IMG/VR virus record: IMGVR_UViG_3300021256_002372 | Span: 1 to 64,000 of that record | Reading direction: 5' to 3' (one strand) | Source of the DNA: a virus | Lineage: Duplodnaviria; Caudoviricetes | Length of the DNA stretch: 64,000 nucleotides | In this document: positions 18,136 through 49,189 of the stretch, in pieces | Numbering within the stretch: position 1 is the stretch's first letter | Layout: each line of letters opens with the position of its first letter | The notes under the pieces: generated by a model | Seen by the model: only the letters and a program-made list of their open reading frames with translations | Told to the model about the DNA's origin: nothing | Database searches by the model: none | Translations under genes and position numbers: made by a program

Positions 18136-18154
18136 TGTCTCACTCTCCTTTGAT

Positions 18155-18583: not shown

Positions 18584-18839
18584 TGCTGCATTCCTCGCTT
18601 TCTCCGGCTGTGCCGGTTCGTTGATTTTTGATTTGCCTTCGCAAATATTATACCACTGTTAGCGGGCTATGTCAAGTATATTTTGGGAGAGTATTTTTCA
18701 TTTTGGTGATCTGCACAAATCGGTCATCCGAATTTTGTATACCATCACAATATCTTTTCCGACCGCTTGACATTTGAAATGAAATGATTTAGAATATCTT
18801 TACAAGCTAATTTCCCTATAAATCCGGAGGCAAAATCCC

Positions 18840-19280: not shown

Positions 19281-19284
19281 GTGA

Positions 19285-27110: not shown

Positions 27111-27117
27111 GATTTCC

Positions 27118-29996: not shown

Positions 29997-30007
29997 AATT
30001 TACCTCC

Positions 30008-30775: not shown

Positions 30776-30871
30776 ACTTCACACCTCCATTTTGTTTTAC
30801 AGAGCATCATTCGTCATATTCTCTACGGGGGTTCGATTCTCTTGATAACAGTGGGCATAGTAACTTCTCCT

Positions 30872-31738: not shown

Positions 31739-31751
31739 AAGAACTCTCCTT

Positions 31752-32933
31752 TCAGTATAGCGTTATCGTGGAATAAGCATTTCCCTTCGTATTTACAATG
31801 ATTGCCTTGTTATCAGGCATTGAAGCCACATATTCAGGACGAAAATATGGGATCTCTGCAGGAACATATTGCGTTCCTTCTGTATAATTTCGACCGGTAA
31901 GCGTATCGAATACGGTGTTTGCTGTCAGACGGCGGTCAATAGTTTTGCCATAATGCTCTTCGAGCACACGTCTGGTGCCGAAAAGTCCACTGATTGCTAC
32001 TGAAGATTCGCCATTATGTGCGCCAAACACATTGATCTCGTAGAGTTTCCGAAACTGCTCGTACTGCTTGGTGTCACTGAAAATGTCATCTGTGATGTAG
32101 AGCAGGTTGTATCTGGTGTGCGTTGTGACACATGATGCCAGATCAAAGAGATTATCTGCACAAGGTACCTTGCCAGTATAGATAATCACATTCACGGGGT
32201 AATGAATATCTGCGATGTCCTTTCTGAGAGTCTCCAGCATTACCGCCGTTTTATCTGCATATACCGAATTTACATAGAGGTGACACAGTGTGTGTGACGG
32301 AAGCTGTTTGATGGAAAAACCACTTTCAGGTGCTGTTCCCAAGGTGAAATCGCATTCCGACAGGATGTTGTCAATCAATAGGTTCCCTTTGGCTGAACGC
32401 TGCAGCATCGAGAGATGCGACTTCATATCTGATGGTCTGATCTTCTGTTTCCTCACCAATTCTTCAAGAGCTTCACCGATCCGTTCAACCGAATCATAGT
32501 GACGGTTCATCTCCCGAAGGCTCTCAAACCGAAGTCCGAGCTGATCGTTGATAGTTTGGAGGAGTGAGATGTACTTGATGATCTGAACGGTCTGATCATG
32601 AGGATACCCAAGGGTGGCAGCCTTTTGCTTAATGTAGCGAACAGCCTGTCCCACATCACTTCCATAGAATGAATCATATCCGCAGACATCTGAGTCGATA
32701 TCGAATGATGCCACTTCATAATTTGAGCCACGAAAGACCGCATCCATATCATGATCCGTGAAATCTATAACGATCACAGATGTGTTTCCAGTTCCGTATG
32801 AGCTGGCAATGAATCTTGTTACAACCTGATTCCTTATCACGCTACAATTACCACTGATCAGGCAAGATGCATTTGCAAGCTGCGTGAGCTTCTCATTGGC
32901 TGCATTATAAGGAACAATCCTTCTTCTCATCAT
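31752..32933 (-). CDS. Degenerate TraD/VirD4-like protein (no intact Walker A)
   Basis: YD.F, ISGLFGT...E..G.T, C-terminal ASMPDNKAII resemble T4CP C-domain; P-loop replaced by SGNCSVIR. Confidence 0.45.
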   Translation of the reverse strand: MMRRRIVPYNAANEKLTQLANASCLISGNCSVIRNQVVTRFIASSYGTGNTSVIVIDFTDHDMDAVFRGSNYEVASFDIDSDVCGYDSFYGSDVGQAVRYIKQKAATLGYPHDQTVQIIKYISLLQTINDQLGLRFESLREMNRHYDSVERIGEALEELVRKQKIRPSDMKSHLSMLQRSAKGNLLIDNILSECDFTLGTAPESGFSIKQLPSHTLCHLYVNSVYADKTAVMLETLRKDIADIHYPVNVIIYTGKVPCADNLFDLASCVTTHTRYNLLYITDDIFSDTKQYEQFRKLYEINVFGAHNGESSVAISGLFGTRRVLEEHYGKTIDRRLTANTVFDTLTGRNYTEGTQYVPAEIPYFRPEYVASMPDNKAIIVNTKGNAYSTITLY

Positions 32934-32982
32934 GTGTGCTCCTTTCCTGGAGACGCTGAAGCGCCTCCCTAATAATTGGCTG

Positions 32983-34209
32983 TTAGTTCCAAATGTTATT
33001 AGCCTGCTCTGAATTCAGAGCAATAATCACCACCTTCCTATTAGTAGCTGCGATAGGCTCAACAAGCTGTCCGTTCTCGATGTCATTCGTAAAGAACGGG
33101 TTTGCAGGGTCATAACCGAATCCTTTGATCCTAATGTCTGTAGTCACTCCCGCATCTCTTAACAGTCGCTCAATCGCTCGTCCTCTTTCCTCAGAGAGAG
33201 TAACCGATGATTCTGCCTCACCGTATGATGCTGTAGAGCAAACGAGCAGAAGATCAATGTGGTTGGTTTCTACAGTATCTGCGAAGGAAGCTATTTTCTC
33301 TCTTGCTACGGACTCATCCTTGATTTCCGCAGTCCCAGCTTTGAAGGCAATGTCCTCTTCACCGATCGTAACCTCAAAGTCAGCAGGGAGAGTATCAGGG
33401 ACATTTTCGAGGGTGATTTCTCGGATACTGCTTCCGTCATCGCCAATAGCAACGGGAGTGACGTTCGGCGCTGATTCAAAGACTGATACCGAATCAGGGA
33501 GATAGTAATTCATGCTAAAACTGCCACCGCCTGTCTCGACAATACTTTGCCAGAGCTCGGTAAGAAGTCGCTCTTCCTTGTCTGTAAGTGTTTCCTGATT
33601 TCCCGCCGTCTTCGCCATGTAGAACTGAACTGAACACCCAGAAAGATCTGGAATCGCATATGAGGTCTTCAGGTCTTCCACAGTTGCAGCAACGTCCAGC
33701 CGGTCGAGCGAAGACAACTCGGTCATATCAAGCTTGCCCGCGGTCGAAAGACCATTGGTGTATACGATGATGGTAGGAGAGTCTTTTCCGGCCATATCCT
33801 TTGCGGCAAGATTCAGCGCTTTCAACAGATCAACCTCATCTGTCTTAGGTGTCCAAGTAGTAATACTCTCAGATACTTCGACCGCCTTGCTGTTGACTCG
33901 GCGATTATAGTTACCTGACGAGAGGTTCTTTCCATCAATGAAGATGGAATCATGATACCCGATGAACGGATCACCGTCTGCGATGATATAGCTGAAGTAC
34001 CCGTTTGACTTGCAGGCATCTGCGATAGCAGGCTGAATCTCCGCCATGTCAAGGCATACGGAATTGGAATTGGATGCATTCACGACAGCAACATTGGCAG
34101 GATACTCTGCATCCGTTATTGTTGTGTCGCCACACCCACAAAGTGACAGTCCCAGCAGTGTTGTCCCTGTAATGCACAGCATTGCTTTGATAGTATTGAT
34201 ATTTTTCAT
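32983..34209 (-). CDS. Lipoprotein with vWA-like N-domain and OmpA/MotB-like peptidoglycan-binding C-domain
   Basis: Lipobox LCGC; DLLKAL, YTNGL (MIDAS-like); F..GTAE, LSEERG, NRKV. Confidence 0.8.
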   Translation of the reverse strand: MKNINTIKAMLCITGTTLLGLSLCGCGDTTITDAEYPANVAVVNASNSNSVCLDMAEIQPAIADACKSNGYFSYIIADGDPFIGYHDSIFIDGKNLSSGNYNRRVNSKAVEVSESITTWTPKTDEVDLLKALNLAAKDMAGKDSPTIIVYTNGLSTAGKLDMTELSSLDRLDVAATVEDLKTSYAIPDLSGCSVQFYMAKTAGNQETLTDKEERLLTELWQSIVETGGGSFSMNYYLPDSVSVFESAPNVTPVAIGDDGSSIREITLENVPDTLPADFEVTIGEEDIAFKAGTAEIKDESVAREKIASFADTVETNHIDLLLVCSTASYGEAESSVTLSEERGRAIERLLRDAGVTTDIRIKGFGYDPANPFFTNDIENGQLVEPIAATNRKVVIIALNSEQANNIWN

Positions 34210-36273: not shown

Positions 36274-36298
36274 GAGACCTGTCATTACAACAGGTCTC
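36274..36298 (-). terminator. Terminator after HD gene
   Basis: gagacctgt/acaggtctc + T tract. Confidence 0.7.
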
Positions 36299-36305
36299 GA
36301 ACAAG

Positions 36306-36995
36306 TTATAGTTCATGAAGTATTCGCTCAATTTCAGTAAGTTTTTTCAGCTTATGGGCTTTGGTGTCAATAATATTTCCGCCCATATACACATTATCAG
36401 ATTGTGCCATAACATCAGCTTCGCATAGTATCAAAAGATCCTTCCATATATTTATTCCATGTGATGAGGTAGGAAGATGTAGAGCGTTACGCTCAATGTG
36501 GTTGGCGATATTGTCGGTTGATATTTCAACAAGATATGGGTTTTCCTTATCATAAGGTTCATCAGGCAAAACATACGATATGAAATCATCATGATGCTCG
36601 ATATAGAAGCTGATAAGTGCTACCTCTGTTTTGCCGAAGCCTTGACACGGTAGGATTTGCTCTACAAGCTCTGCTGATTTCTTCGCATGATGATAGAAAA
36701 CAAGCCGTCCCTCTTTTTCTGTAGCAACATATGGTTTTCCTATATCATGATAGAGTGCAGCAACCTTCAAAATATCTGCAAAGGTCTTTACATCATCTAT
36801 TCTTGACAGAACCCCACTCACTGTCCGAAGTGAGTGTTCCATCAAGTCATAACAATGGTGCGGATTATTCTGCTTATATTCAACCATATTAGCGGCATCT
36901 ATTCCCAAGAGGATGCCCACCATGCGTTTATGCATATGAAGCCAATTATCCAAGGGAAAGTCTAACGAAAGAAACAGGTCTTCTTTACCAATCAT
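36306..36995 (-). CDS. HD-domain phosphohydrolase (CCA-adding/polyA-polymerase HD type)
   Basis: HH..DL.EH, LYHDIGKP, HAKKS, EHHD, EAD. Confidence 0.85.
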   Translation of the reverse strand: MIGKEDLFLSLDFPLDNWLHMHKRMVGILLGIDAANMVEYKQNNPHHCYDLMEHSLRTVSGVLSRIDDVKTFADILKVAALYHDIGKPYVATEKEGRLVFYHHAKKSAELVEQILPCQGFGKTEVALISFYIEHHDDFISYVLPDEPYDKENPYLVEISTDNIANHIERNALHLPTSSHGINIWKDLLILCEADVMAQSDNVYMGGNIIDTKAHKLKKLTEIERILHEL

Positions 36996-37001
36996 ATCGG
37001 A

Positions 37002-39695
37002 TCACCTGTCTTTCTCACGATTCCTAAAGAGCTCATTTTGCTTTTCGATTCTCTCCATTAGTTCCTTATAGATGAAATGATTCTTGTCAACGATACGAAT
37101 ATATGGTCCATAGCTCATTAATCGAATAAGAACATCGATCTCATCATATTTATGATAGTAGAGCGTAAATCGATACAGTTTTGTTTTAGGGTTTATCAGT
37201 TCACAGCGCTTCCGCCAAGGAGCAAATTCATTCAATAATCTGTCTGGAATATTCTTAGTGTCAATAAATTCAACTGTTATTTGTTTACTTGTATTTTGAA
37301 GAAAATCCGATAGTATTTTCTGATAGTCTTCTGGGCTAAAGGTGCTGTCACAGGGGGTGATGCCCGTTATTCCGTCTATATTCATTATACGAACACGTTT
37401 TGAAGCGTCATCTACAACATATAGCCTGAAACGATCATCGCGCTTTGAGTATTCAATATGAAGAGGACAGTATGTTCCTTTATATTTTCTCCCTTTTCCG
37501 TCCGTATATCTGATTTGCAAACGAACACCCTTATGTAGCGCAGAAATAAGTGCTTGAAAAAATTCAGCATTGGGTTTATGACCTTTAGAATGATACCGAT
37601 CAAATACTACAATATCTGATACATTTATGGGTTTGATACTATCTGGTATCAAAGCAAGAATCTTATTTATAGTATCTGAAGACAGAAACAGATTCATTTT
37701 ATCGTCATTCAGAATAGTACATAACCATCGAAGCTCCCAGGCTGTAAGTGGAATTACATCAAAAAACAAATCTGGTTCCATTTTTTGAACAGCCTTATAT
37801 TTCATGTGATATACATAATCTTTTTTATCTTCAGGCGCGCCCTCGACCCATGTATCGTATTCCATATATCCGCACTTGATAAATAGAAGGCGATTTAATG
37901 CGGATAGTAGATTGTATTTGCTTTTAGAACTTACAAATGAAAGTCTTGTGTGTAAACCTATTTCTTGTTCTCGCTTTTTGTAACATGACTCAATACATTC
38001 TTTAAGTGCATCAGCAGATAAACAATCAGAGTGATTTTTGCCTGATTCATATAGAGATGATAAGACATCACCGAATAGCATAAAATAAACTCCAAAGAAT
38101 GGGTTGAAAAGAGAATCGCTGATGCTTTCTTTGATTCGCGTAAAGGATGTTCCTTTTGGAATAAACCAATTAGAATTAAATGACGTATCAGGCTTTAAAT
38201 CTTTGAAATGACTATCAAGTTCCTGATATTCATTTACTTCATCAGATAAATGGAATGCGTCTGTATCTATTCCGGAACACTCTACAATTCTAGAATAGAA
38301 GCTTCTGATCCATGGCCGCATTTCCCTTGGGTCTGTCACCTTAATTGAGAAAACAATTCTATCTTTTTGGATAGTGATTGTACCATGTCTTTTTTCATGA
38401 TTCAACCTATTTATTATATAGTATTCCGAACCATCTGGATTATATTGAATGACAAGCCTTACCTCTTTGAGAGGTACAGGACTTTGCGCATTATTCTCCT
38501 GTCTGTCAGTTGTTGAGACTCCCCAAGAATAACGAATACCTGTAAGAGCATTTGATATTTCTTCTTTAATTTGTGAATTCTTTAATGAGATATCTTCTCC
38601 GTTCATTTTTATGTTATCGATAAGTTCAAGAGCAGTAATCAGATCAAGCCGAATGTTAGAGTAACTATGGTTATGAGGTGCATAAAAAGAGAGGTATTGC
38701 CGTCCGTTTGTTTGACTCGCTCGTATTTGTAAAGGAAAACATATAAGATGTTGCTCTTCACCTGACATTGGGTTGGACTGTGTGATTTTGCACCACAGCT
38801 TATCCTCCATTGCCTTTAATAGGTCAATTATAATATAGTCATTAAGCGATTGAGCGAAATACTCATGTTTAAATCTGAATATACTTCTATCAGCTTTATG
38901 CGCACGAGATAAGAAATATGTTCCGTATTCGCCAAGCACGAAAAATCTGGAAAAGAAATCTATCGCATCAAAGAACAAATCGGCAGCATCTCCGCATTCA
39001 GAGATGATATACTGAAGTGTAATCTTGCTAAGTTTCCACTTGACATTTCGCTTGTCAGACGAGACCTCTCTTAGTAAATGAAGATTCTCTCTTGGAGTTA
39101 GATACTTTCTAACTATCTGATCTTCTTCAAGAAAGCCCTTAGATACAGGCGCACAGAATGCTGCAATTTGTTTATATGTCAGTTCTCGGCGTTCGTAGTT
39201 TTCAAGAAAGCTGTCAAGTAAAGAAGTGATGCTATGCGATATCCCATCTGAAATCTTGCGTTCTTCTGAGATTATTTCTTCAAATCGATCTTTATCAATA
39301 ATTTTCAAAGCTGGCAATGAATCTTCACCTACAGAGAAGAAGTTCTCTGCAAGTTCATATTTCTCACTAAGCGCTAATACAGTATTAAAAAAAATAACCA
39401 GATCAGCTTTAGTATACATTGAAAAGCGATAAACTCTGTGAAACGGATTGCACTGCTGTGACTGCGAATCAGCTGAAATAAATGCAACCTTACTTCTTTC
39501 GGTTGACCATTGAAAATACTGATCTTGACGAAGAATATTTGATAATCTCACCCAGTCTTCATCAAGTGTCTTACGGGTTCCTGAAAGCGTAGAATAATTC
39601 ATAAACCCATATGTATAGTAGTTGCGGAGTGGATTTCTGAATTTTTCGATAAATTTGCTTTTGATCATCTCTTCATGTGTTTGATTTGTCGGCAT
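37002..39695 (-). CDS. Double-WYL-domain transcriptional regulator (fused, PafBC-like architecture)
   Basis: WYL1: FPLQIR....GRQYL..Y..IRLDLI, WCX: DPREMRPWIRSF; WYL2: PLHIEYSKRDDRFRL, WCX: LIRLMSYGPYI; start ATG 39695. Confidence 0.85.
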   Translation of the reverse strand: MPTNQTHEEMIKSKFIEKFRNPLRNYYTYGFMNYSTLSGTRKTLDEDWVRLSNILRQDQYFQWSTERSKVAFISADSQSQQCNPFHRVYRFSMYTKADLVIFFNTVLALSEKYELAENFFSVGEDSLPALKIIDKDRFEEIISEERKISDGISHSITSLLDSFLENYERRELTYKQIAAFCAPVSKGFLEEDQIVRKYLTPRENLHLLREVSSDKRNVKWKLSKITLQYIISECGDAADLFFDAIDFFSRFFVLGEYGTYFLSRAHKADRSIFRFKHEYFAQSLNDYIIIDLLKAMEDKLWCKITQSNPMSGEEQHLICFPLQIRASQTNGRQYLSFYAPHNHSYSNIRLDLITALELIDNIKMNGEDISLKNSQIKEEISNALTGIRYSWGVSTTDRQENNAQSPVPLKEVRLVIQYNPDGSEYYIINRLNHEKRHGTITIQKDRIVFSIKVTDPREMRPWIRSFYSRIVECSGIDTDAFHLSDEVNEYQELDSHFKDLKPDTSFNSNWFIPKGTSFTRIKESISDSLFNPFFGVYFMLFGDVLSSLYESGKNHSDCLSADALKECIESCYKKREQEIGLHTRLSFVSSKSKYNLLSALNRLLFIKCGYMEYDTWVEGAPEDKKDYVYHMKYKAVQKMEPDLFFDVIPLTAWELRWLCTILNDDKMNLFLSSDTINKILALIPDSIKPINVSDIVVFDRYHSKGHKPNAEFFQALISALHKGVRLQIRYTDGKGRKYKGTYCPLHIEYSKRDDRFRLYVVDDASKRVRIMNIDGITGITPCDSTFSPEDYQKILSDFLQNTSKQITVEFIDTKNIPDRLLNEFAPWRKRCELINPKTKLYRFTLYYHKYDEIDVLIRLMSYGPYIRIVDKNHFIYKELMERIEKQNELFRNREKDR

Positions 39696-39765
39696 AGGAA
39701 TCACCCCTAAAAAGGCGGTGGAAAACTTGTCCCTTTTATTAAGCCAAGCATTCCACCTCAATTTG

Positions 39766-42700
39766 TTACTCTATTGGTTCTTTTACAAGTTTAATCAGCC
39801 TCGTGAAACCTTCATCATCGAACAATTCCTTTGTAAGTTGCTGTAACTCTGAAAGTGTAATCAGTTGCCCCTTATTTCCATGAGCCGATGGATTTCTGAT
39901 GTCTCTAATATTAGCGATAAAGGCAGCATGCAAACGCCAATCACGAGCACTGCCAAAAGAACCGTTTGCCAAATCAGCGATATTACTCGTTGTATTGCTC
40001 GCATTATTGCCGTGGGAAACATTGATCGGAAATGCAAACGATCCTATTGTTAACTTCTGTTTTTGGGATTGCGGAAGTCTTCGGATTGCCCCCCATGTGT
40101 ATTTTTCGCGAGCATCCTTTCTTAAATCTGTTTTTACATCTACTAATACTTGACTATAAATATCTGTGTGGTATTCTTTCAGCATGCTCTCAATCAGCTT
40201 ACAGTACATGATAGAAACCGGGCTATAATCAAGAGTAGACAGATCGCCGCCAATGCTTCCGTTAATAAACATTTTTTCAAGTTGTGCTGCTAATCGAAGA
40301 GAATCAATAAAGCACGATGGAATATTATATCTCTGATGGAAAACATTAAATTCTTCTTCCGAGATCTTTAGAATATCCCAAACTGCGGGTAATTCTGTTT
40401 CGGTCTTATCAACAGCAGTCTGAAGACTTTCTTCCATATCAGCAGCGTATCCATCAATAGCATAGGATAATCTCGCATCCGAAATATCAGTTTCTTCAGA
40501 GTTATGCGGCGGTAGATAGGCATTGAGTCTTGGCAAATCACGCAATCCGGTAAGTACCTTTTGAGGATCACCGTTTGCTGTTAAAATACCGTTCAGCGTG
40601 TTTGTGATGTTTTTTACACTAATTTGTATTGTTTGATTTTCTATGATAGTACCTGTGTTAATGACGTCAACAGCAACACGTTTTCTGAATTCGGTCATCT
40701 TTTCGGAAGGTATGCTTGTGTCAAGATATGCCATAGATAACAAATTATATTTCGCATCAGGAGACAGACGATCAAACTCTTCCTTAGCTGTTGATAATGT
40801 TGACGCTTTATCCTCTTCAAGTTCAAATTGTGGATCCTCTGGAGGTGCAGCAAGTCTATTCTCAATCTGCTCACAGCTCATTTGATTGATACCAAGAAAA
40901 GCATAGTAATAAAACACCGTTGTGAAAGTGTATGCGCAGACAATACCGCTCTCATCTCGCTGCTCACGCAAAATCCCACGCTTCACTGCAATTTCGATAG
41001 AATCACCGATCGTATTTGCATACAAGTCTTTCAGACGCATAGAATTGAAAACAGATTTCGGAAAACTTTCGTTGCTTGGATTCTCCCTCAGCCATTGCGC
41101 AATATACATCAGGAACAGCATGTCCGTTTCTTTATCAAGATTTTTGACAACTGCATCGTAAATGTGGATGATTCCTTCTACAACACTCCCATTTGTAGTT
41201 TGCTCATGCTTCTGCCGATTCAGCAATGTTTGAACCGCCCATGTAATATCTGAAGGGAAAATAGTATTTCTATTCGTGAAGGAAGAAGCATCCCTGCATA
41301 CTTTTCTCAGAATTGTATTGCAAATCTCCTTTCCGTATAAGGCAATTCCGCCTGTATAAGTATACAGCGCATCAATCGCAGAATCCGAATAACAAATCAA
41401 GTCTTTCGGAAATTCTTCTGCCTCGCAGATCATTTTCCTGAATCCATCTCTCGGCAGCGGACCAACCAAGATGCCGGTATCTGGAATAATCTTTCTCCAA
41501 ACCGATTTCTCTGTTGAGGTCATCTGTTTCAAAAGCTCGTCAGATCCGCACAGCACAAGACGAACAGCATGCGGATATTCCGGATCCGAAATCTTCAAAT
41601 CCGAGCAAACTAAAGCAAAGGCAGATGTTGCGGACTCTATATTTTTCCATTGACGGACTACCTCTTGAAATTCATCCATCAGCAGCCACAGTTCTGTTTC
41701 ATTTTTGCGGAGAAGTTCCTCAAGGTTTGAATATCGATCCACCAAATTCGATTTCTTGTCGCTTAGTACAGACGTTATTTGTTTTTTCAGTTCTTGTGTT
41801 AATTCTTCGCCGACAACGGCAAATCTTTTTGGCTTATCAATGCTGTGGATAATAGAGTCGCAGAGCAAATAATCAGATACCTCTGAGGCGTTTGAATAGT
41901 CTAAAGGTGTATCGTCGTAGAATTTTATCGTATAATCGCGTTCTTTGAAGGTTCTTTCACCCGCTAGAAGAATCGTTATAATACGTTTTGCAGACGAGTT
42001 TGGGGCAGTTACATTTTGTTTACTCAAAAAACGTCTTACCCAATTCAGCAGAGATGTTTTTCCGATTCTTGACGGTCCATACAGAACTGTCAGCCCTTCC
42101 TTTAATGACTGACGTAGCTTTTCCTTATCATTTTCCCGTCCGAACAGCATTTCTTCATCTGTAACCGCACTGTCCACATGATACCATTGCTTTTTCTCCG
42201 AAATCCCAACGCTTTCCTGGTCGTGATGAATTTGCAATGTCTTTCTGAATCGGGAGTATAGTACTTGATTCAGCCAAGCAGATACTGTGACATCAACAGT
42301 TGAAAGATTTTCCAGTTGAATTGGCAGTTTGACGCAGAAGCCGCTAACATAACCGTGACGAAGTTCTGTAATTGTATTATCCATTCCGATTATGATTTCG
42401 TTCGGATTATCATTGAAACTCAAAGTGATTTTAACATGATTATCGCCCAGATTGTCAAGATTCACGGTACTGTGTCCGACATTTAGGATTTGTGCATAGA
42501 TGCATCCATCCGAACAAGAATCATTCACAATTTCAATATGAAGTCTAACATCTTTTTCAAGCTGTTTTATTTCGTGCTCAACTGCTTTTTGCAGATATCC
42601 GGCGAATCTAGAATAGAAGACTGTAGCGATATTTAAGGACTTCAGTATGATAAGGCGCTGTTCAAGAGAAGTGTCCTTATGCAAGACCTTCTGTAGCACC

Positions 42701-45700
42701 GGTATAATCTGCGCCTTCACAATTTCAAGTTCTTTGGAAGTCTCGTCATCCTTGCTGATACAAGCACTGATCAGGTCATAATATCTGCACCAACAATTTA
42801 TGTCAAGACCTTCTTGAATCAGCTTGTCCATAGTTTTCTTGCTAATTGAGTAAAAATTGCGTTGAGTGGAGATACTCAGCACATTGATGGTGCTGTCAAG
42901 ATCGGCTAGAATGATGATACGAGCTTCTGGAGTAAGCTTATTTTCATTTTGCAGCATTTCTATACCCACGATATAAGCCACTTCTAGATAGGAAGGCATG
43001 TCGCGCTTAGTATTTGTTTTAGACATCACCATGAGTAACTGGATGCCTAATTCAGTTTTCTTCTCCCCTTCGGCAACTCGATATGCCGCATAAAGCTCCT
43101 CCATATCGGTAACCTTTGGCTGAGGGATGTTCAACATCCTAGAAACCGCATTAATAAACTTATATTTGCTGCTTTTAGCCGTTCTGTAACTTGAATCACC
43201 ATCAAGACTCGGAGGAGCAAACATTTCTGACATATCTGACAGCATATACTGCTTCAATGCTAAATATGACTTGTGCCATGTCTCCGGCAAGTTCTTGTCA
43301 AAGTCAAGATCGTCAAAGTACATTGCCAAGGATTCAGCATCTTTACTGATTGCAGCCTGAACACAATGTAAAAAACGGTAAACAGTTTGTGCTTGTGGAT
43401 GCTCGGTCGAGATATAATTTAGCACGTACAGATAACGATCACTTGTGTCACCTTTTGCAGAAAGCGAGTACATCTTTTCGTATAGGCGCAACGGGAGTTG
43501 CACAGATGCAAGTAGCGGAATGAGCATCTCACGGCATTGGTCAAAATCCTTAGTTGGAACTTTCAGTATCTTTGTTACGCATGTGCTGGCCTTTTCAGAT
43601 TGCACCACTTCTACTAACAGCTCATACGATTTTGTATCTGAGTGCATTTGTAAATATGCAAGAACATCATGAACCGGTTTAGAAACCCCTTCGGACAGTT
43701 TTAACAAATAGTCGATTTTATCAGGATGAAGAATATAATATTTCAAGGTGCTGACATTGAATTCACGATAAGCAACTTCAGAAACAACCAGTTTCATTGC
43801 GTTCGGATTAAAGCATTCAACATCAGAGAGGAGGTGCATGGTACATTCGTCAAAGAATTCACAGAAGTCTCCGTTTAGCAATGAAAACAGCATCAATTTG
43901 TGCATTGTATTCATTTCGGTTGTGCATTGTAAATCTTCGGATTTACAAACGAGTAACATGATTGCTTGCTTAAAAGGAATATATTTTGTTTGATAGCTCA
44001 ATTCCTTATGACCAAAATATTCCATACTGGAAATAATTGATCCGTCATCTATCTCATCGACATGATTTGAACCAAGAAGGCAAAGTGCCAGCAACGCCTT
44101 TTGATATCTTCTCTCGATATAAAAAAGATCAAAGTCGCTGTTATGATAAACCTGATACAGATAGGTTTTATATGAGAAATATGCAAAAATATCAAACGCA
44201 TCCCAAGCCGTTAGTTCTGCATAGCTACAGCTAAAATAGTTAGAATACAGATCTTGATCATAGAGTACAGAGGCGATGATAGAATACACGATCATTTTGT
44301 AAGGTGCGGAATATGTTTCCCTATCGAATAAAAACAGGTTTTTCTTGCTTGGATAACAGGACAGAATGGTTGCAATATCACGCTTGATACGAATAATGTC
44401 ATGTTCGGACTGATTCATCCAGTTCGGGATATAGCCTTGCGTTATTTCATCAGAATACCCATATAGGAAGCGCACAACAGAAACGAGGTTGCTTTCAACA
44501 TACCCGAGCGCATTCCAATGCTCATTTCGAAGGATATTTCGATATTCAAAGGCATTTTCAACCTTATCATACACCTTGCACAAGTGACGTAAGATAGCGA
44601 TTCTTCCTTCATCGTAAACAAGCAATCTTGACATATCGATGAGGCTGAACAAATCTTCTTGACCATCTATGCACTCAATAAGATCAAAGTATATCTCCTC
44701 ATGTGATTCATTAAACTTATTTGCACAGATATTTATAAAATCTTGAACAGAATAATTAAGTTCACGCGTTATAGGACTGATAGTTATTCTCGTTTTGAAA
44801 TCATCACTTTGTATCATTGCGTCATGTATTTTGTGAAAAATGATTTCTGAATCTGCATTCGCAAGAAAAGGACATATCATATTTAGATAATTAAAAGGGA
44901 TTTCATCAATCGTGAGTGCAATTTGACTCTCCGCCATTTGTATGACAATTCCTGTAAATTCTGGCGTAGCCTTCATTTCTAAATAAGAAATGGCATTTGC
45001 GCAAGCGCAAATTTTCCATGCATTCAAGTTAGGCTTCTTAGTGATGTGTTCAAAGAACTTTCTCCATCTTTGTGGATCTTTTGCGTTCTTAATCAGATAT
45101 TCGTAATTCGAAGCAAATGAATGCGTCTGCTTTTTCGACAGTCCTATTTTCTCTGGTAGTTTAAGATTTCCACACCAATCAAGGAAATCGATTAGCTGTT
45201 CAGTCGACAGATAGATAAAGGACTTTTCAATGACCGAAAAACGAGTCATAGTATCGTTCACTACTTTTGTAAACCGATTTCCGAGCCATCTGCGGAATTG
45301 TGTATATATGTGGCTGTGTCCTCTTTCCAATGTATCCTTATAGCATGCATACAGGTAAATAGCGTAAAACGGATTGTTCAAAACACAGTATAGAACAATC
45401 ATTGTATTAATGACATATGTTGAATTAGCTGTATAGTGTTTAGATGTAAATGCAAGAGCTTTCTCCAAAGACCATGCGCTGTTAAAAATGTTTCGCGTTT
45501 GCTCAGAAATGCCACAGTGTTCGCATATATCGATTGTTACATGTAGAATATGATCTTGAAGATTATTATCGATTACAAATGAAAGAGCTTCTTCGTAATA
45601 GTGAAGGAAAATTAAAGAATCAATATACTTTACAATGAGTTGTCGATTTGTCTGCTCCGGACTGCCATTAAACACGTGTTTGAATAATCGGCAAAAGGCT

Positions 45701-48594
45701 TCGTAGGCGTGAATAGCATATAAGTCATCTAGAACATCCTCCACATGATCCGGTGCGCTATCAATGATATCACAACCCATTACCCAATCTGCATACGCAT
45801 CTTGCAGTTTCATTTCATGCGTATAATCAAACTTGAACACATCAAACAGACTAATCAGCACAGGCGATGTAACTTCTGTCACAGGGAAAACATCTGACGT
45901 CTGCTGTGCATAATAGCTATCTGAAATATTCCTCCAATGTCCCCAGTTTTCTTTCATATCCACAGTTAATACTGCTTCTGATATATCATCAAAAGATTTT
46001 TTTGCGTACACTGCCAATCCGTAAAATGCATCATTAGTGCTGAGAAGATTAATAATCACAGAAAAAGAACCAAGTAATGATAAGCGCTTTTCTTGCTTAG
46101 TAAGATCTCCTTGTGTTACTCGCAAGCGCAGAATCTCATCGACACTTGCTTCGCAATCATATTTCAGTGTAAATGCCAAGATCTTTAGAAAAGCAGGTGA
46201 AAGGACATCAACAAATCCAATCTTCTCCCAAATTTGCGCTACAATTTTCTGATACAGTTCTTTGTTGATATTCGTGTCAAAGATTGTGCGGTATTCCTCT
46301 TCTGTCAGCGTGTCATAGTGATTATACACCTTAAATAAAAAATGAAACATTGGCTCAGCAAAAAGGTGACTAATCGGAGAGATCTCGTTGAGCGCATTGA
46401 GGTCAACAAAAGTCGAAAACAACTGGGTTAAAAAGATTCTGGAAGGACAATCAAATTGATTCTGTTCTTCGCAAATAGAAATAATAGAAGGCAGATACAA
46501 CCAATTTTCAGGCGAACCAGGTATCAGAGATGCTCCTGACTGCGGACGGTTCACACGCTTTATCATTCTGCACAACTCGTTCAGCTGCTCATATTTTCTA
46601 CTTGGGTGGGCTATGATATAAATAAACAACAGATAGGGATATAATTCATTCCAACATGACTCTGCACGCTCAATCAATCCTATGTAATCAGTATTATGCG
46701 TTTTGGCGGCTAAATATCCAATGGAATTGAATAATTCTTTTGCTGCATTAATTTTATCTTTTTTCAATCGGAACGTGCGGGGTGGGATACTTGTGGAGAG
46801 GCATTCTTCCAGTGCAGTATTATCTATTACGATTCCATTCTTGTATTTTTTTACAATGTCAGTGCCCAAAGGTGCTTCAAGCAACGTTTTTTGGAACGAA
46901 TTTAGTGTAAACACAGCTTCTTCATCTTTGGTAAGTAAACGTTTAGCACACGTTAATGCTTTGGTAAAGAAGAAGGGTGGGATGTCAATAGGGCGATATT
47001 TCGTAAAATGTTCAGATGATAAGAATCCGTAATAATCGCCTGACTCGTAAAGCGGAGTTAATACCGAGGCATCGTCAGACGAGAAAAAAGAGATTTCCTG
47101 TCCGCTCGCTATAATAATGGCTGGATAGTCTTTTCCCCCAATATATGCATGCGTTTTCGACACGAAATCGGTTAAATACTTTTCTACGAATTGTGTCAAA
47201 GAGTCTGCATACAGTTTATAATTATCCAAACCAAATCGTTTGAAAATTGTTGGTAACTCGGAGGATAACATATACCCATTATCCCTGATGATGGTGCTGA
47301 TTGTCTCAGATACACTCAATACTATATCAGAAGGCAACATTAATTCACCACTATAATTATCAAAGCTCTCAAAATCAACACGCCCTTTTTGTAAAAGAAC
47401 CCGCTTGTAATACCGTTGACCGATAACCACATCATCTTGTATCTCTAATCCATTCAATTCTTTTTCAACGAATTCAGAGAAACTTGAGGGGAGAATGGAG
47501 GCATCTATATTGTACTTCTCAAGCAATCCTGTCACAAGTGAAAAGTCAGCAAACCCTCGCTCACCTATGATTTGGAGAAGTTCAGATTTCATATCTTCAA
47601 TAGCTGCTGCTTTAAGTCTACTATCAACGGATGTAATAATACAGGGCTGAGTTTTCCCATCTATGTAAACATTTGTTTCAACTTTGAACTCAGTGTTGAA
47701 ATATAAAGATATAAAAGCTGTAATAGATTCAGCAAATCGATGATAGTCTAGGATGCCAGCTTTTTTCAACAACGCTGGAAAATATGCCCCCTTGACATAA
47801 CCATATTCCTCTATGTACTGTTTGATAATACTCACAGTATTTTTAAGAGCTTCTTCATCCAAATTGTTGTTAGGCAAAATTATACAAGGCTGATTTTTTC
47901 CGTCAATAATAACATTATTTTCAACTCTAAATTCGTTGCTAAAAAAGGATGAAATAAATGAGACGATAGAAACCGCATACTGATGAAAATCGTTGATCCC
48001 TGCTTGTTTGAGCAGTTCTGGCAGATATGCTCCTTTGATATAGCCATGTTCCCTGATGTATTGTGTTAAAACACTGACAACCTTCTTCATTGTGTCATTA
48101 TCCAGATCTTGTGATGACATAGGGGATTTTCCAAATGAAAGATTTGCACTTGCTTGCGCAGAAACAATCGCGCAGGGACAAATTTTGCCATTCACCCTTA
48201 CATCAGATCTTGATGTGTATTTGGGGGCCAAGTATTTTGAAATAAATCCAGTCATATTTTGGGCGTAGGTTTTAACATCTTGTACTCCATTACCTTTTAA
48301 TAACTGCGAAAATTCTATTGCTGTTAAAAAGCCTTTTTGCTCAACAATTGCATCAACTTCAGCAATAATATCTTGGACGATATCGTTCGATAATTCAGGA
48401 TACTCTATTTCGGCTTGACGAATTAATTGCGCGTACTCTTTTCCCTCTAACTCAATGATATCAAATTCGATAATGAAACCAGGGCGTACATAAACTGAAG
48501 GACTAGAAAAAGAATATTCCCTGCCATCCTGAGAAGATATGATCCCCTGTACTATCCCATCAATCTTAGACACCGTTATTACTCTTCCGATCAT
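39766..48594 (-). CDS. Giant (~2,942 aa) protein: cold-shock-like OB domain, 5 LOTUS/OST-HTH-like repeats, helical region, STAND-type ATPase, C-terminal HEPN
   Basis: Five ~78-aa repeats (G Y/F..ll...g..d...y...fi...f..V.I.GK..P.II); FGRE..LYGPSRIGKTS; LLMDEFQ; RNPSAH at 39880-39897. Confidence 0.75.
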   Translation of the reverse strand: MIGRVITVSKIDGIVQGIISSQDGREYSFSSPSVYVRPGFIIEFDIIELEGKEYAQLIRQAEIEYPELSNDIVQDIIAEVDAIVEQKGFLTAIEFSQLLKGNGVQDVKTYAQNMTGFISKYLAPKYTSRSDVRVNGKICPCAIVSAQASANLSFGKSPMSSQDLDNDTMKKVVSVLTQYIREHGYIKGAYLPELLKQAGINDFHQYAVSIVSFISSFFSNEFRVENNVIIDGKNQPCIILPNNNLDEEALKNTVSIIKQYIEEYGYVKGAYFPALLKKAGILDYHRFAESITAFISLYFNTEFKVETNVYIDGKTQPCIITSVDSRLKAAAIEDMKSELLQIIGERGFADFSLVTGLLEKYNIDASILPSSFSEFVEKELNGLEIQDDVVIGQRYYKRVLLQKGRVDFESFDNYSGELMLPSDIVLSVSETISTIIRDNGYMLSSELPTIFKRFGLDNYKLYADSLTQFVEKYLTDFVSKTHAYIGGKDYPAIIIASGQEISFFSSDDASVLTPLYESGDYYGFLSSEHFTKYRPIDIPPFFFTKALTCAKRLLTKDEEAVFTLNSFQKTLLEAPLGTDIVKKYKNGIVIDNTALEECLSTSIPPRTFRLKKDKINAAKELFNSIGYLAAKTHNTDYIGLIERAESCWNELYPYLLFIYIIAHPSRKYEQLNELCRMIKRVNRPQSGASLIPGSPENWLYLPSIISICEEQNQFDCPSRIFLTQLFSTFVDLNALNEISPISHLFAEPMFHFLFKVYNHYDTLTEEEYRTIFDTNINKELYQKIVAQIWEKIGFVDVLSPAFLKILAFTLKYDCEASVDEILRLRVTQGDLTKQEKRLSLLGSFSVIINLLSTNDAFYGLAVYAKKSFDDISEAVLTVDMKENWGHWRNISDSYYAQQTSDVFPVTEVTSPVLISLFDVFKFDYTHEMKLQDAYADWVMGCDIIDSAPDHVEDVLDDLYAIHAYEAFCRLFKHVFNGSPEQTNRQLIVKYIDSLIFLHYYEEALSFVIDNNLQDHILHVTIDICEHCGISEQTRNIFNSAWSLEKALAFTSKHYTANSTYVINTMIVLYCVLNNPFYAIYLYACYKDTLERGHSHIYTQFRRWLGNRFTKVVNDTMTRFSVIEKSFIYLSTEQLIDFLDWCGNLKLPEKIGLSKKQTHSFASNYEYLIKNAKDPQRWRKFFEHITKKPNLNAWKICACANAISYLEMKATPEFTGIVIQMAESQIALTIDEIPFNYLNMICPFLANADSEIIFHKIHDAMIQSDDFKTRITISPITRELNYSVQDFINICANKFNESHEEIYFDLIECIDGQEDLFSLIDMSRLLVYDEGRIAILRHLCKVYDKVENAFEYRNILRNEHWNALGYVESNLVSVVRFLYGYSDEITQGYIPNWMNQSEHDIIRIKRDIATILSCYPSKKNLFLFDRETYSAPYKMIVYSIIASVLYDQDLYSNYFSCSYAELTAWDAFDIFAYFSYKTYLYQVYHNSDFDLFYIERRYQKALLALCLLGSNHVDEIDDGSIISSMEYFGHKELSYQTKYIPFKQAIMLLVCKSEDLQCTTEMNTMHKLMLFSLLNGDFCEFFDECTMHLLSDVECFNPNAMKLVVSEVAYREFNVSTLKYYILHPDKIDYLLKLSEGVSKPVHDVLAYLQMHSDTKSYELLVEVVQSEKASTCVTKILKVPTKDFDQCREMLIPLLASVQLPLRLYEKMYSLSAKGDTSDRYLYVLNYISTEHPQAQTVYRFLHCVQAAISKDAESLAMYFDDLDFDKNLPETWHKSYLALKQYMLSDMSEMFAPPSLDGDSSYRTAKSSKYKFINAVSRMLNIPQPKVTDMEELYAAYRVAEGEKKTELGIQLLMVMSKTNTKRDMPSYLEVAYIVGIEMLQNENKLTPEARIIILADLDSTINVLSISTQRNFYSISKKTMDKLIQEGLDINCWCRYYDLISACISKDDETSKELEIVKAQIIPVLQKVLHKDTSLEQRLIILKSLNIATVFYSRFAGYLQKAVEHEIKQLEKDVRLHIEIVNDSCSDGCIYAQILNVGHSTVNLDNLGDNHVKITLSFNDNPNEIIIGMDNTITELRHGYVSGFCVKLPIQLENLSTVDVTVSAWLNQVLYSRFRKTLQIHHDQESVGISEKKQWYHVDSAVTDEEMLFGRENDKEKLRQSLKEGLTVLYGPSRIGKTSLLNWVRRFLSKQNVTAPNSSAKRIITILLAGERTFKERDYTIKFYDDTPLDYSNASEVSDYLLCDSIIHSIDKPKRFAVVGEELTQELKKQITSVLSDKKSNLVDRYSNLEELLRKNETELWLLMDEFQEVVRQWKNIESATSAFALVCSDLKISDPEYPHAVRLVLCGSDELLKQMTSTEKSVWRKIIPDTGILVGPLPRDGFRKMICEAEEFPKDLICYSDSAIDALYTYTGGIALYGKEICNTILRKVCRDASSFTNRNTIFPSDITWAVQTLLNRQKHEQTTNGSVVEGIIHIYDAVVKNLDKETDMLFLMYIAQWLRENPSNESFPKSVFNSMRLKDLYANTIGDSIEIAVKRGILREQRDESGIVCAYTFTTVFYYYAFLGINQMSCEQIENRLAAPPEDPQFELEEDKASTLSTAKEEFDRLSPDAKYNLLSMAYLDTSIPSEKMTEFRKRVAVDVINTGTIIENQTIQISVKNITNTLNGILTANGDPQKVLTGLRDLPRLNAYLPPHNSEETDISDARLSYAIDGYAADMEESLQTAVDKTETELPAVWDILKISEEEFNVFHQRYNIPSCFIDSLRLAAQLEKMFINGSIGGDLSTLDYSPVSIMYCKLIESMLKEYHTDIYSQVLVDVKTDLRKDAREKYTWGAIRRLPQSQKQKLTIGSFAFPINVSHGNNASNTTSNIADLANGSFGSARDWRLHAAFIANIRDIRNPSAHGNKGQLITLSELQQLTKELFDDEGFTRLIKLVKEPIE

Positions 48595-48608
48595 TTTATA
48601 TCCCCCTA

Positions 48609-49085
48609 TCAACTGTTAAACCATTTTTGCCAATTATCATCTTGAATTGCATGAGATGTTTTCTTTTTAGTATCAGCAGTTTGAGCTTTTTTAGCATCGA
48701 TTGTTTGAACCGTTTTAGGTCGTTCAGTTTCTATCACTGCGAACGCATAATTGTTCGGATCAAAATCAAATATATTTGCGGAATATCCGTTTCTTGTCAT
48801 CTCAAAGATTGTAGCGCCACTATCAATAGCCTTATTGAATGCATACAGAATCGTTGCTTCAATAAGCTTCCTTCCAATCTCATTGATTGGGTGAGCTATA
48901 TCCATAAAGCCACCTTGTTTTTTGGGCTTACTCGGCATTGCTATAAAGAATCGTTCATTTGCATATAAGACCTTAATATCATTAACAGCAAATACGCCAT
49001 CAATAACTATACTTGCTACTGCCTTCATTTTGCTATTGCTATTGGACTCAGGAAACACATATATCTTCACCGAAGTAATAACCAT
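48609..49085 (-). CDS. spoVG: SpoVG-family nucleic-acid-binding protein with C-terminal extension
   Basis: ITSVKI..MKAVASIVID..FAV.DIKV..FIAMPS...F.DIAHPIN. Confidence 0.85.
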   Translation of the reverse strand: MVITSVKIYVFPESNSNSKMKAVASIVIDGVFAVNDIKVLYANERFFIAMPSKPKKQGGFMDIAHPINEIGRKLIEATILYAFNKAIDSGATIFEMTRNGYSANIFDFDPNNYAFAVIETERPKTVQTIDAKKAQTADTKKKTSHAIQDDNWQKWFNS

Positions 49086-49160
49086 AATCATTCTCCTTGT
49101 AAAAATAAAAAGCAAATCGTTTCGACATATAGCCCTGTGTTTTTCTTGATATTCATATTA

Positions 49161-49189
49161 ATTATAGCACATTTCGACAATAAAGTCAA
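49161..49189 (-). promoter_or_regulatory. SigA promoter of the spoVG-giant gene operon
   Basis: TTGACT-17-TATAAT with extended TG. Confidence 0.75.

What the first reader, a model, noticed from the sequence alone, without database searches (positions are those of the whole stretch)
36306..49189. SpoVG + 2,940-aa CSD-LOTUSx5-STAND-HEPN protein + WYL-WYL + HD: candidate RNA-sensing defence system
Seen: a consensus promoter, spoVG, then 14 bp later a giant ORF. It has an N-terminal cold-shock-like domain, five ~78-aa repeats (~47100-48400) resembling LOTUS/OST-HTH, ~1,500 aa of helical sequence, a P-loop (GPSRIGKT; LMDE) and a terminal RNPSAH. The WYL and HD genes follow. Known: Rx4H is the HEPN RNase signature; STAND ATPases act as NLR-like phage sensors (Avs); CSD, LOTUS and SpoVG bind nucleic acids. 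The order here (putative sensor N-terminal, effector C-terminal) is the reverse of Avs. Inference: it recognises foreign RNA or ssDNA, oligomerises and cleaves RNA; the fragments might activate the WYL regulator, and HD might process RNA ends.
Basis: partly seen in the sequence, partly recalled or inferred. Interest (0 to 1): 0.8.

Follow-up and report, generated by a model that had tools for sequence, protein, structure and literature searches.

The report
Giant STAND–HEPN defence protein with RNA-binding array
A four-gene operon in the cargo region of a gut-Clostridia prophage encodes a 2,942-residue NLR-like ATPase with a cold-shock-like domain, five LOTUS-like winged helices, a large unknown region and a HEPN-type RNase motif at its end; it is the core of an undescribed, probably RNA-directed, anti-phage family.

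Summary
A consensus promoter (49189-49161, minus strand) drives spoVG-like, a 2,942-aa gene, a WYL gene and an HDIG gene, and a terminator follows (36298-36274).

What is shown for the giant protein:
- An invariant RNxSAH motif in an all-helical C-terminal domain. Its only weak database matches are HEPN families.
- The N-terminal cold-shock assignment holds through orthologues only.
- The 1,600-aa middle region matches nothing known.

About 100 clusters of relatives exist, almost all in gut Clostridia. The giant is the constant core. After dereplication, WYL follows it in 21 of 43 clusters, HD in 14 of 39 (only with WYL), and SpoVG precedes it in 11 of 32, mostly where the N-terminus is cold-shock type. 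Many giants stand alone. PADLOC has no model for it and I found no paper on it.

Best reading: an NLR-like abortive-infection RNase with optional accessory genes. This is a new variant of a known kind. The HEPN fold, any RNase activity and defence itself remain untested. The scan holds no note of this family on other DNA.

The parts
49161..49189 (-). sigma-70 consensus promoter TTGACT-17-TATAAT with extended TG
48609..49091 (-). SpoVG-like gene (about 158-160 aa; SpoVG fold plus a ~70-aa C-terminal extension); a paralogue, not the housekeeping equivalog
   Evidence: Pfam SpoVG 81.6 bits; NCBIfam PRK13259 79.2 bits, below its cut-off of 108; start codons read
39766..48594 (-). giant gene, 2,942 aa from the ATG at 48594
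48388..48594 (-). N-terminal cold-shock-like OB domain (residues 7-75 of P0001)
   Evidence: phmmer to orthologous N-termini, E about 1e-4; those N-termini hit Pfam CSD at 29.7 bits (cut-off 27) and 21.7 bits; the window's own sequence gives no Pfam hit
47104..48387 (-). five tandem ~77-aa LOTUS/OST-HTH-like winged-helix repeats (residues 76-503)
42190..47103 (-). conserved middle region (residues 504-2141) with no recognisable relatives; candidate sensor or scaffold
   Evidence: occupancy about 0.9 across the family; no Pfam hit, no PDB sequence hit and no Atlas match, best 0.75
40867..42189 (-). STAND NTPase module: nucleotide-binding, helical and winged-helix domains (residues 2142-2582)
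42052..42078 (-). Walker A, GPSRIGKTS (residues 2179-2187)
   Evidence: G2179, G2184, K2185 and S2187 invariant
41671..41685 (-). Walker B, LLMDE (residues 2310-2314)
   Evidence: D2313 invariant, E2314 nearly so
39769..40410 (-). C-terminal all-helical HEPN-like domain (residues 2735-2948)
39880..39897 (-). Rx4H motif RNPSAH (residues 2906-2911)
   Evidence: R, N, A and H invariant in 42 relatives; RNxxxH is also invariant in 34 distant homologues with other architectures
37002..39695 (-). WYL-domain protein (897 aa from the ATG at 39695); WYL domain at 37356-37565, weak second WYL-like stretch at 38658-38732
36306..36995 (-). HDIG-type HD phosphohydrolase (229 aa)
   Evidence: Pfam HD 7e-10; TIGR00277 39.4 against 27.6; next best are the HD regions of CCA-adding enzyme, GlnD and Cas3
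36274..36298 (-). intrinsic-terminator-like hairpin that closes the operon

Best explanation
The operon encodes an uncharacterised NLR-like (STAND) abortive-infection system whose effector is a C-terminal HEPN-type RNase. The giant protein is the self-sufficient core. In the resting state it is probably a closed, ADP-bound monomer. A cue of infection is bound either by the variable N-terminal array of nucleic-acid-binding domains (cold-shock-like OB plus 0-6 LOTUS-like winged helices) or by the conserved 1,600-aa middle region. That binding allows nucleotide exchange and oligomerisation of the STAND module. Oligomerisation brings the C-terminal HEPN domains together. HEPN RNases need a dimer to form the composite Rx4H site, so RNA is then cut and translation stops. 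The accessory genes modulate this. The SpoVG paralogue, found almost only with cold-shock-type N-termini, would act as a nucleic-acid-binding co-factor. The WYL protein would sense a nucleic-acid ligand or cleavage product. The HDIG enzyme, most like the 2',3'-cyclic phosphodiesterase domain of CCA-adding enzymes, would act on the cyclic-phosphate ends that HEPN cleavage leaves. Shown here: the gene order and operon bounds; the domain identities (STAND firm, LOTUS-like fold good, HEPN and CSD probable); conservation of the catalytic motifs; the co-occurrence statistics; the defence-island setting. Inferred: the trigger, oligomerisation, RNase activity, the roles of SpoVG, WYL and HD, and the defence phenotype.
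For: STAND module:
- Pfam nSTAND1 is above its gathering score.
- Walker A and B are invariant or nearly so.

HEPN:
- RNxSAH is invariant.
- Among 42 C-terminal domains, the Pfam families hit by most members are HEPN_RiboL-PSP (14, best 8.9e-4), DUF4145 (14, best 2e-3) and HEPN_MAE_28990 (8); SWT1_3rd, HEPN_Apea, HEPN_Swt1 and HEPN_Cthe2314 also appear.
- The only PDB profile hit is HepS, aligned on IRNxxAH.
- hhalign to a DUF4145 profile gives P 5.7e-4 over the motif helix and the next helix.
- Language-model neighbours are all RnlA/LsoA HEPN clusters, 0.94 and 0.90.
- The same domain sits at the C-terminus of Upf1-like helicases and of other STAND, NACHT and KAP NTPases, as a swappable effector would.

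LOTUS-like repeats: AF2 pLDDT 94. Five of the six best of 48,161 chains are LOTUS domains: TDRD7 7.1, TDRD5 6.9, Marf1 6.3, Oskar 6.3, Tejas 6.2.

CSD: orthologous N-termini hit PF00313.

Defence setting:
- In the window: type III R-M and DUF4268 upstream, PDC-S06/PrrC-like protein, type I R-M, NACHT-pentapeptide protein, PBECR4.
- In relatives: Eco29kI R-M, ParE/Phd and an E1/JAB system next door.

Association: WYL 21/43, HD 14/39, SpoVG 11/32 among clusters dereplicated at 90%. SpoVG accompanies 10 of 13 CSD-type N-termini against 2-3 of about 22 others.
Against: - No HEPN family reaches its Pfam gathering score. hhalign to an RnlA-DBD profile aligned only the motif, probability 0.2%.
- PADLOC has no model for the giant, so there is no experimental precedent.
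- Some relatives sit among housekeeping genes with no defence neighbours.
- No other IMG/VR viral contig carries the family.
- No HTH was found in the WYL protein.
- The SpoVG-CSD link may reflect shared descent rather than function.
Confidence: 0.6

Rival explanations
1. The architecture and effector are the same, but the sensor is the conserved 1,600-aa middle region. It would recognise a phage protein, as the repeat arms of Avs proteins do. The CSD-LOTUS array and SpoVG would only tether the enzyme to its RNA substrate (mRNA, tRNA or ribosome) or set cleavage specificity.
For: Residues 500-2140 are conserved in every relative (occupancy about 0.9), whereas the N-terminal 500 residues vary from about 85 to 630 aa with 0-6 repeats. 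All bacterial STAND defence proteins characterised so far sense proteins (PMC13581612). The middle region has no invariant acidic or histidine residues that would suggest catalysis.
Against: The fold of the middle region is unknown. In arms-race proteins the variable part is usually the one that contacts the invader, which favours the N-terminal array as sensor.
Confidence: 0.25
2. It is not anti-phage defence. It is a function of the mobile element itself: an addiction, exclusion or RNA-surveillance module that helps the prophage or plasmid persist or compete with other elements. SpoVG and the WYL protein would be regulators of the element's own genes.
For: The record carries capsid and portal genes together with a relaxase and ParAB. 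Close relatives lie beside polyvalent conjugative-element proteins. SpoVG is a known global regulator. A 12-nt motif marks four downstream promoters of the same element.
Against: Relatives also occur in chromosomal housekeeping contexts without element genes. STAND plus HEPN is a typical immune architecture. The neighbours are overwhelmingly restriction and abortive-infection genes.
Confidence: 0.1
3. The C-terminal domain is not a nuclease. It is a nucleotide- or ligand-binding helical domain, as some HEPN relatives are, and the protein is a signalling scaffold whose real effectors are the neighbouring genes (HD, the ClpP/TraG-like pair, the envelope module).
For: No HEPN family reaches significance. 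A ClpP plus TraG-like pair recurs downstream in 10 of 31 clusters and an OmpA-like module in 9 of 32.
Against: R, N and H of Rx4H are invariant even in distant homologues fused to helicases. Inactive HEPN domains typically lose the motif (PMC3710099). Many giants have none of these neighbours.
Confidence: 0.05

Closest known systems
Avs (antiviral STAND) and bacterial NACHT/NLR-like defence proteins
   Different: The order is reversed: here the effector is C-terminal and everything else is N-terminal. The effector is HEPN-like rather than Mrr/REase, SIR2 or a protease. The N-terminus is an array of nucleic-acid-binding domains. It is 2-3 times longer. No PADLOC Avs or bNACHT model hits it. The NTPase belongs to nSTAND1/ATPase_2.
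STAND-TPR-S1-HEPN fusions and OST-HTH+S1 effectors predicted by comparative genomics (Anantharaman et al. 2013, PMC3710099; Kaur et al. 2021, PMC8195603)
   Same: The same parts list in principle: a STAND ATPase, an OB-fold RNA-binding domain, OST-HTH, and HEPN with Rx4-6H. nSTAND1 was defined in that work.
   Different: Those are other families (cyanobacterial and proteobacterial, with TPR sensors). I found no description of this roughly 2,500-3,100-aa Clostridial family, of its 1,600-aa middle region, or of its SpoVG, WYL and HD partners.
CoCoNuT type IV restriction systems (Bell et al. 2024, PMC11090510)
   Same: Predicted RNA-directed immunity that combines cold-shock domains, HEPN nucleases and an NTPase. 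They are often extended by FtsK/HerA-like ATPases, vWA proteins and kinases, as in the window's downstream genes. Distant homologues of this HEPN domain are fused to Upf1-like helicases.
   Different: There is no McrB GTPase, McrC or coiled-coil tandem here. The motor is a STAND ATPase.
WYL-regulated defence (CapW, BrxR, PafBC) and WYL1 of type VI-D CRISPR
   Same: A WYL(-WCX) protein encoded next to an immune effector. WYL domains sense ssDNA or ssRNA (PMC11662680, listed).
   Different: This protein is three times larger (897 aa), has a weak second WYL-like stretch and no detectable HTH. It is always followed, when HD is present, by an HDIG enzyme.

Membership tests
STAND NTPase (nSTAND1 / ATPase_2 clade) | Pfam model above its gathering score | tested here: met
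   PF20703 32.8 bits against 27.1, residues 2151-2397
STAND NTPase (nSTAND1 / ATPase_2 clade) | Walker A GxxxxGK[ST] and Walker B hhhhDE, conserved | tested here: met
   G2179, G2184, K2185, S2187 and D2313 invariant; E2314 at 90% or more
STAND NTPase (nSTAND1 / ATPase_2 clade) | Tripartite fold: NBD, helical domain and winged helix | tested here: met
HEPN superfamily | Rx4-6H motif with a polar residue after R, conserved | tested here: met
   R2906, N2907, A2910 and H2911 invariant in 42 relatives and in 34 distant homologues
HEPN superfamily | Significant profile match to a HEPN family | tested here: inconclusive
   No family reaches its cut-off. The families hit by most members are HEPN_RiboL-PSP (14 of 42, best 8.9e-4), DUF4145 (14 of 42, 2e-3) and HEPN_MAE_28990 (8). 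hhalign to DUF4145: P 5.7e-4, probability 29.5%, 33 columns. hhalign to RnlA-DBD: probability 0.2%. PDB: HepS only, E 0.48
HEPN superfamily | Four-helix up-down bundle fold | tested here: inconclusive
   The AF2 model shows an all-helical domain with the motif at the end of a long helix, followed by two helices. The domain could not be folded and searched alone, and STAND matches fill the whole-model lists
LOTUS / OST-HTH domain | Winged-helix fold closest to solved LOTUS domains | tested here: met
LOTUS / OST-HTH domain | Sequence match to Pfam OST-HTH (PF12872) | tested here: not met
   No hit at E<=10 for any of the five repeats. The repeat profile finds no LOTUS chain in the PDB
Cold-shock domain (PF00313) | Pfam CSD match | tested here: inconclusive
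   The window's residues 7-75 give no hit. Orthologous N-termini score 29.7 bits (L068, cut-off 27) and 21.7 bits (L064), and are linked to the window by phmmer at E about 1e-4. The fold was not modelled
Avs families as modelled in PADLOC 2.0 | Match to an Avs model, with N-terminal effector and C-terminal sensor | tested here: not met
   The only PADLOC hit is a GajA P-loop at E 0.022. The domain order is reversed
WYL domain protein | WYL domain | tested here: met
   PADLOC WYL 5.9e-18. Pfam 20.9 bits against 21.8 in the window, but 15 of 17 orthologues hit at E<=0.1 (best 2.5e-8)
wHTH-WYL-WCX transcription factors (CapW/BrxR/PafBC type) | N-terminal winged HTH and a WCX domain | tested here: inconclusive
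   WCX in 2 of 17 orthologues (1.3e-5). No HTH family at E<=0.1. No PDB hit at E<=1
HD / HDIG phosphohydrolase | HD domain with the HDIG signature | tested here: met
   PF01966 39.6 bits against 22. TIGR00277 39.4 against 27.6. The sequence contains ...YHDIGK...
SpoVG | SpoVG domain; housekeeping equivalog | tested here: met
   The domain is met: PF04026 81.6 bits against 29.6. The equivalog PRK13259 scores 79.2, below 108, so this is a paralogue with an extra C-terminal tail
CoCoNuT | McrB-like GTPase plus McrC with coiled coils | tested here: not met
   No such Pfam hits in the operon or its neighbours

The most novel reading that the evidence does not exclude
This would be the first bacterial NLR-like receptor that senses nucleic acid directly. 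A variable array of cold-shock and LOTUS domains, helped by a dedicated SpoVG paralogue, would read phage RNA or ssDNA and switch on a C-terminal HEPN RNase. The WYL protein would then read the cleavage products and turn on a second layer of immunity: the four downstream operons that share a promoter motif, including the ClpP/TraG-like and envelope modules. HD would reset the signal.
Probability: 0.2. Interest if true: 0.85.

Novelty: new variant of a known kind. Interest (0 to 1): 0.62.

Why it matters
Bacterial STAND/NLR-like immune proteins studied so far recognise phage proteins and carry their effector at the N-terminus. This family of about a hundred sequence clusters, common in human and animal gut Clostridia, inverts that plan. 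It puts an expandable array of RNA-binding-type domains where the effector normally sits. If the array is the sensor, it gives a testable case of nucleic-acid sensing by a prokaryotic NLR relative, a parallel to eukaryotic RNA sensors. LOTUS is otherwise known mainly from animal germline proteins, so this would also give it a bacterial immune role. The recurring SpoVG, WYL and HDIG partners point to regulation through RNA ends or fragments. The 1,600-aa region with no detectable relatives is a large piece of unknown protein structure.

Tried and rejected
- Pfam on the whole giant and on each segment at E<=10 gave no OST-HTH and no CSD for the window, and only one weak HEPN hit.
- PDB sequence and profile searches with the C-terminal 819 aa, the repeat profile, the HEPN profile, the middle region and the WYL profile gave only P-loop matches, HepS at E 0.48, or nothing.
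- Foldseek with the repeat model found nothing at E<=1e-3.
- Whole-model fold searches of the 819-aa model are filled by AAA+/STAND chains, so they say nothing on the HEPN part.
- RnlA/LsoA membership, suggested by the Atlas, is rejected as a family assignment: hhalign aligned only the motif.
- The Atlas gave nothing for the middle region, best 0.75.
- A scan of IMG/VR viral contigs found no relatives.
- The idea that the four genes form an obligate system is rejected by the context counts.
- The full 20-nt promoter motif matches only two of the four sites within three mismatches, and my spacing pattern was mis-set and found none. Only the 12-nt core is shared by all four.
- My first tblastn queries for the giant's middle and C-terminal parts were out of frame; those rows should be ignored.


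Full report
WHERE IT LIES

The window is the first 64 kb of a 125.5-kb IMG/VR record. The record carries an HK97-type capsid gene and a portal gene at 107-113 kb. It also carries a relaxase and ParA/ParB inside the window. It is therefore a large temperate phage or phage-plasmid.

Most of the window is defence cargo:
- PBECR4, a type I R-M system and a NACHT/nSTAND1-pentapeptide protein on the plus strand.
- On the minus strand upstream of the finding: a PDC-S06/PrrC-like ATPase, an HTH protein, a type III R-M system and DUF4268.

G+C drops to 0.37-0.40 over 36-50 kb, against 0.43-0.48 in the adjacent flanks.

THE OPERON

All four genes are on the minus strand.
- The best sigma-70 match of the region, TTGACT-17-TATAAT with extended TG, lies at 49189-49161. 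It follows a terminator hairpin at 49339-49312.
- The SpoVG-like gene ends at 48609.
- Fourteen nucleotides containing GGGGGA separate its stop from the ATG of the giant gene at 48594.
- The giant gene stops at 39766.
- The WYL gene most likely starts at the ATG at 39695, behind an AGGGGTGA site, and stops at 37002.
- HD runs from 36995 to 36306.
- A strong hairpin with a T-run at 36298-36274 closes the unit.

THE GIANT PROTEIN, PART BY PART

(a) Residues 7-75. Pfam sees nothing in the window's own sequence. The same N-terminal position in relatives L068 and L064 hits Pfam CSD at 29.7 bits (above the cut-off of 27) and 21.7 bits. phmmer links the window's segment to them at about 1e-4. The cold-shock-like call is therefore probable by transitivity.

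(b) Residues 76-503.
- There are five tandem repeats. Four score 108-254 pairwise against a shuffled maximum of 50. The fourth copy scores 86 bits against the repeat HMM.
- I took 58 repeats from the window and relatives (alignment A3) and folded repeat 2. The model has pLDDT 94.2 and the layout helix, short strand, helix, helix, beta-hairpin, which is a winged helix.
- The correct wording is 'LOTUS-like winged helix', not a proven OST-HTH family member.

(c) Residues about 504-2141. This region is conserved in every relative, with occupancy about 0.9. It has no Pfam, PDB or Atlas relative. Its invariant residues are aromatic, proline or arginine, with no catalytic-looking pattern. Its fold is unknown, and I did not test the claim that it is helical.

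(d) Residues 2142-2582.
- Pfam nSTAND1 is above its cut-off.
- The AlphaFold2 model of the last 819 residues, built from the 42-sequence alignment A2, has pLDDT 84.5.
- The STAND call is firm.

(e) Residues 2735-2948.
- The domain is all-helical in the model.
- R2906, N2907, A2910 and H2911 are invariant in 42 relatives that share as little as 24% identity with it.
- A profile of this domain finds 273 representatives at E<=1e-3 among 1.84 billion proteins.
- I scanned 34 of the more distant hits of that search. Their commonest partners are Upf1-like SF1 helicases (11 of 34), other STAND, NACHT or NB-ARC ATPases, DEAD/ResIII helicases and KAP. They keep D...E...RNxxxH invariant. This is the behaviour of a swappable effector domain.
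- No HEPN Pfam family reaches significance. However, across the 42 domains the families hit by most members are HEPN_RiboL-PSP (14), DUF4145 (14) and HEPN_MAE_28990 (8), with SWT1_3rd, HEPN_Apea, HEPN_Swt1 and HEPN_Cthe2314 behind.
- The only PDB profile hit is the HEPN protein HepS, aligned on the motif.
- hhalign against a 21-sequence DUF4145 profile gives P 5.7e-4 over the motif helix and the following helix.
- Language-model neighbours are all RnlA/LsoA HEPN clusters, but hhalign against an RnlA-DBD profile aligns only the motif. It is therefore not that family.
- I rate HEPN superfamily membership at about 80-85%. The fold test on the isolated domain is still missing.

THE PARTNERS

- The WYL protein has a WYL domain at residues 733-802: PADLOC 5.9e-18; Pfam just under its cut-off here, but detected in 15 of 17 orthologues; WCX in 2. 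A weak internal match (E 0.004) places a second WYL-like strand pair at about residues 344-368. This gives partial support to 'WYL-WYL'.
- No HTH was detected in the WYL protein and no solved relative was found. Calling it a transcription factor is inference.
- HD is an HDIG-type domain, above the TIGR00277 cut-off. Its next-best matches are the HD regions of CCA-adding enzymes, GlnD and Cas3.
- The SpoVG gene has a full SpoVG domain but falls below the housekeeping equivalog cut-off and carries a roughly 70-aa tail.

THE FAMILY AND ITS CONTEXTS

- A word-indexed search found 81 relatives of 1,650-3,120 aa.
- Pattern scans returned 27 loci in species genomes. Nearly all are gut Clostridia (Ruminococcus, Lachnospiraceae, Acutalibacteraceae, Christensenellaceae, Faecalimonas), with single Odoribacter, Paludibacteraceae and Erysipelotrichales records. 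A further 49 loci came from metagenomes and none from other viral contigs.
- After dereplication at 90% there are 56 clusters. Counting only loci with enough flank:

| Neighbour | Clusters with it |
|---|---|
| WYL orthologue directly downstream | 21 of 43 |
| HD (only ever after WYL) | 14 of 39 |
| SpoVG paralogue directly upstream, same strand | 11 of 32 |
| ClpP | 10 of 31 |
| 420-aa TraG-like ATPase | 9 of 30 |
| OmpA-like module | 9 of 32 |

- Several giants have none of these partners and sit next to unrelated defence genes or housekeeping genes.
- The full arrangement SpoVG-giant-WYL-HD recurs in relatives only 25-27% identical to the window's giant, for example L023 and L064. It is therefore an old, repeatedly kept arrangement, but not an obligate one.
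- N-terminal architecture varies from about 85 to 630 aa with 0-6 repeats. It begins either with a CSD-type domain, directly with a LOTUS-like repeat, or with a third, unassigned type.
- SpoVG accompanies 10 of 13 CSD-type proteins and 2-3 of about 22 others. This has not been corrected for phylogeny.

MECHANISM

The parts fit an NLR-like abortive-infection RNase. STAND proteins switch from monomer to oligomer on ligand binding. HEPN RNases need dimerisation to build their active site, which is established knowledge of the family (Anantharaman et al. 2013, PMC3710099). Placing HEPN at the end of an oligomerising STAND is thus a simple on-switch.

What triggers it is open. The variable CSD-LOTUS array with SpoVG argues for a nucleic acid. 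The conserved middle region argues for a protein ligand, as in Avs (PMC13581612).

HEPN cleavage leaves 2',3'-cyclic phosphate ends. The HD domain of CCA-adding enzymes, the closest named match here, has 2',3'-cyclic phosphodiesterase activity; I recall this from the literature and did not check it here. WYL domains bind ssDNA or ssRNA (PMC11662680). A WYL/HD pair that reads and processes cleavage products is therefore plausible but untested.

COMPARISON AND NOVELTY

- Comparative-genomic papers list HEPN fused to STAND, TPR and S1, list OST-HTH+S1 effectors, and define nSTAND1.
- CoCoNuT systems combine CSD, HEPN and an NTPase for predicted RNA targeting.
- I found no paper that holds SpoVG together with HEPN, and none that describes this family.
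- PADLOC 2.0 has no model for it.
- The scan's own notes hold it only for this same genome.
- I class it as a new variant of a known kind: STAND immune receptor with a nuclease effector.

Noticed in passing
window 36266, 34305, 28637, 23412 (minus strand): A 12-nt core ATCTTT(G/T)T(G/A/T)TA(T/C) occurs exactly four times in the window. All four are on the minus strand, each just after a terminator hairpin and upstream of a -10 box, and each heads one of the four operons downstream of HD. The two equivalent sites are conserved in the closest relative (L007). Background is about 1 per 170 kb in the related loci. This could be the operator or activator site of the WYL protein or of another regulator.
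   Followed up: partly
window 24313-26171; L002, L009, L010, L026, L050-L054, L063, L064, L080: A ClpP-like protease followed by a 420-aa TraG/VirD4-like ATPase recurs 3-8 kb downstream of giant-WYL(-HD) in 10 of 31 dereplicated clusters, including loci flanked by housekeeping genes. In the window the pair is pushed about 10 kb away by inserted modules. It may belong to the same larger system.
   Followed up: partly
window 28707-34209; L015, L024, L025, L038, L045, L051, L065, L077: An OmpA-like 408-aa protein, a 393-aa protein, an M48 peptidase, an NS_2-type endonuclease and a TrwB/HerA-like ATPase recur next to giants, including giants that lack WYL/HD (9 of 32 clusters for the OmpA-like gene).
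   Followed up: partly
window 26196-28158: A Ser/Thr kinase (PADLOC PD-T4-6/MkoA-like, 2e-24) and a PfkB-family sugar kinase sit in the same operon as ClpP and the TraG-like gene. A PfkB gene also lies directly upstream of the giant in L010 and L039.
   Followed up: no
window 9502-12735: A second STAND protein (NACHT/nSTAND1, 827 aa) ends in pentapeptide repeats and is followed by a 236-aa all-pentapeptide protein.
   Followed up: no
window 39700-39765: The 70-nt spacer between the giant and the WYL gene holds an inverted repeat GGTGGAA...TTCCACC followed by GCCTTTTT. This may be an attenuator that sets the ratio of giant to WYL/HD.
   Followed up: no
P0176, P0183, P0185, P0192, P0204, P0206 and others: Distant homologues of the C-terminal RNxxxH domain end roughly 1,300-1,600-aa Upf1-like SF1 helicases and other NACHT, NB-ARC or KAP NTPases. 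The domain is an unrecognised HEPN-like effector family with several carriers.
   Followed up: partly
G000 107715-113613 (outside the window) and window 16415-20655: The record combines phage portal and HK97 capsid genes with a MobA/VirD2 relaxase and ParA/ParB, as in a phage-plasmid or a composite element.
   Followed up: partly
L029 10001-10903; L035 8768-10954: In one Ruminococcus and one Paludibacteraceae genome, only a short ORF carrying the C-terminal domain was found where the giant would be. In L029 it is followed by WYL and HD. These are either broken giants or short stand-alone forms.
   Followed up: no
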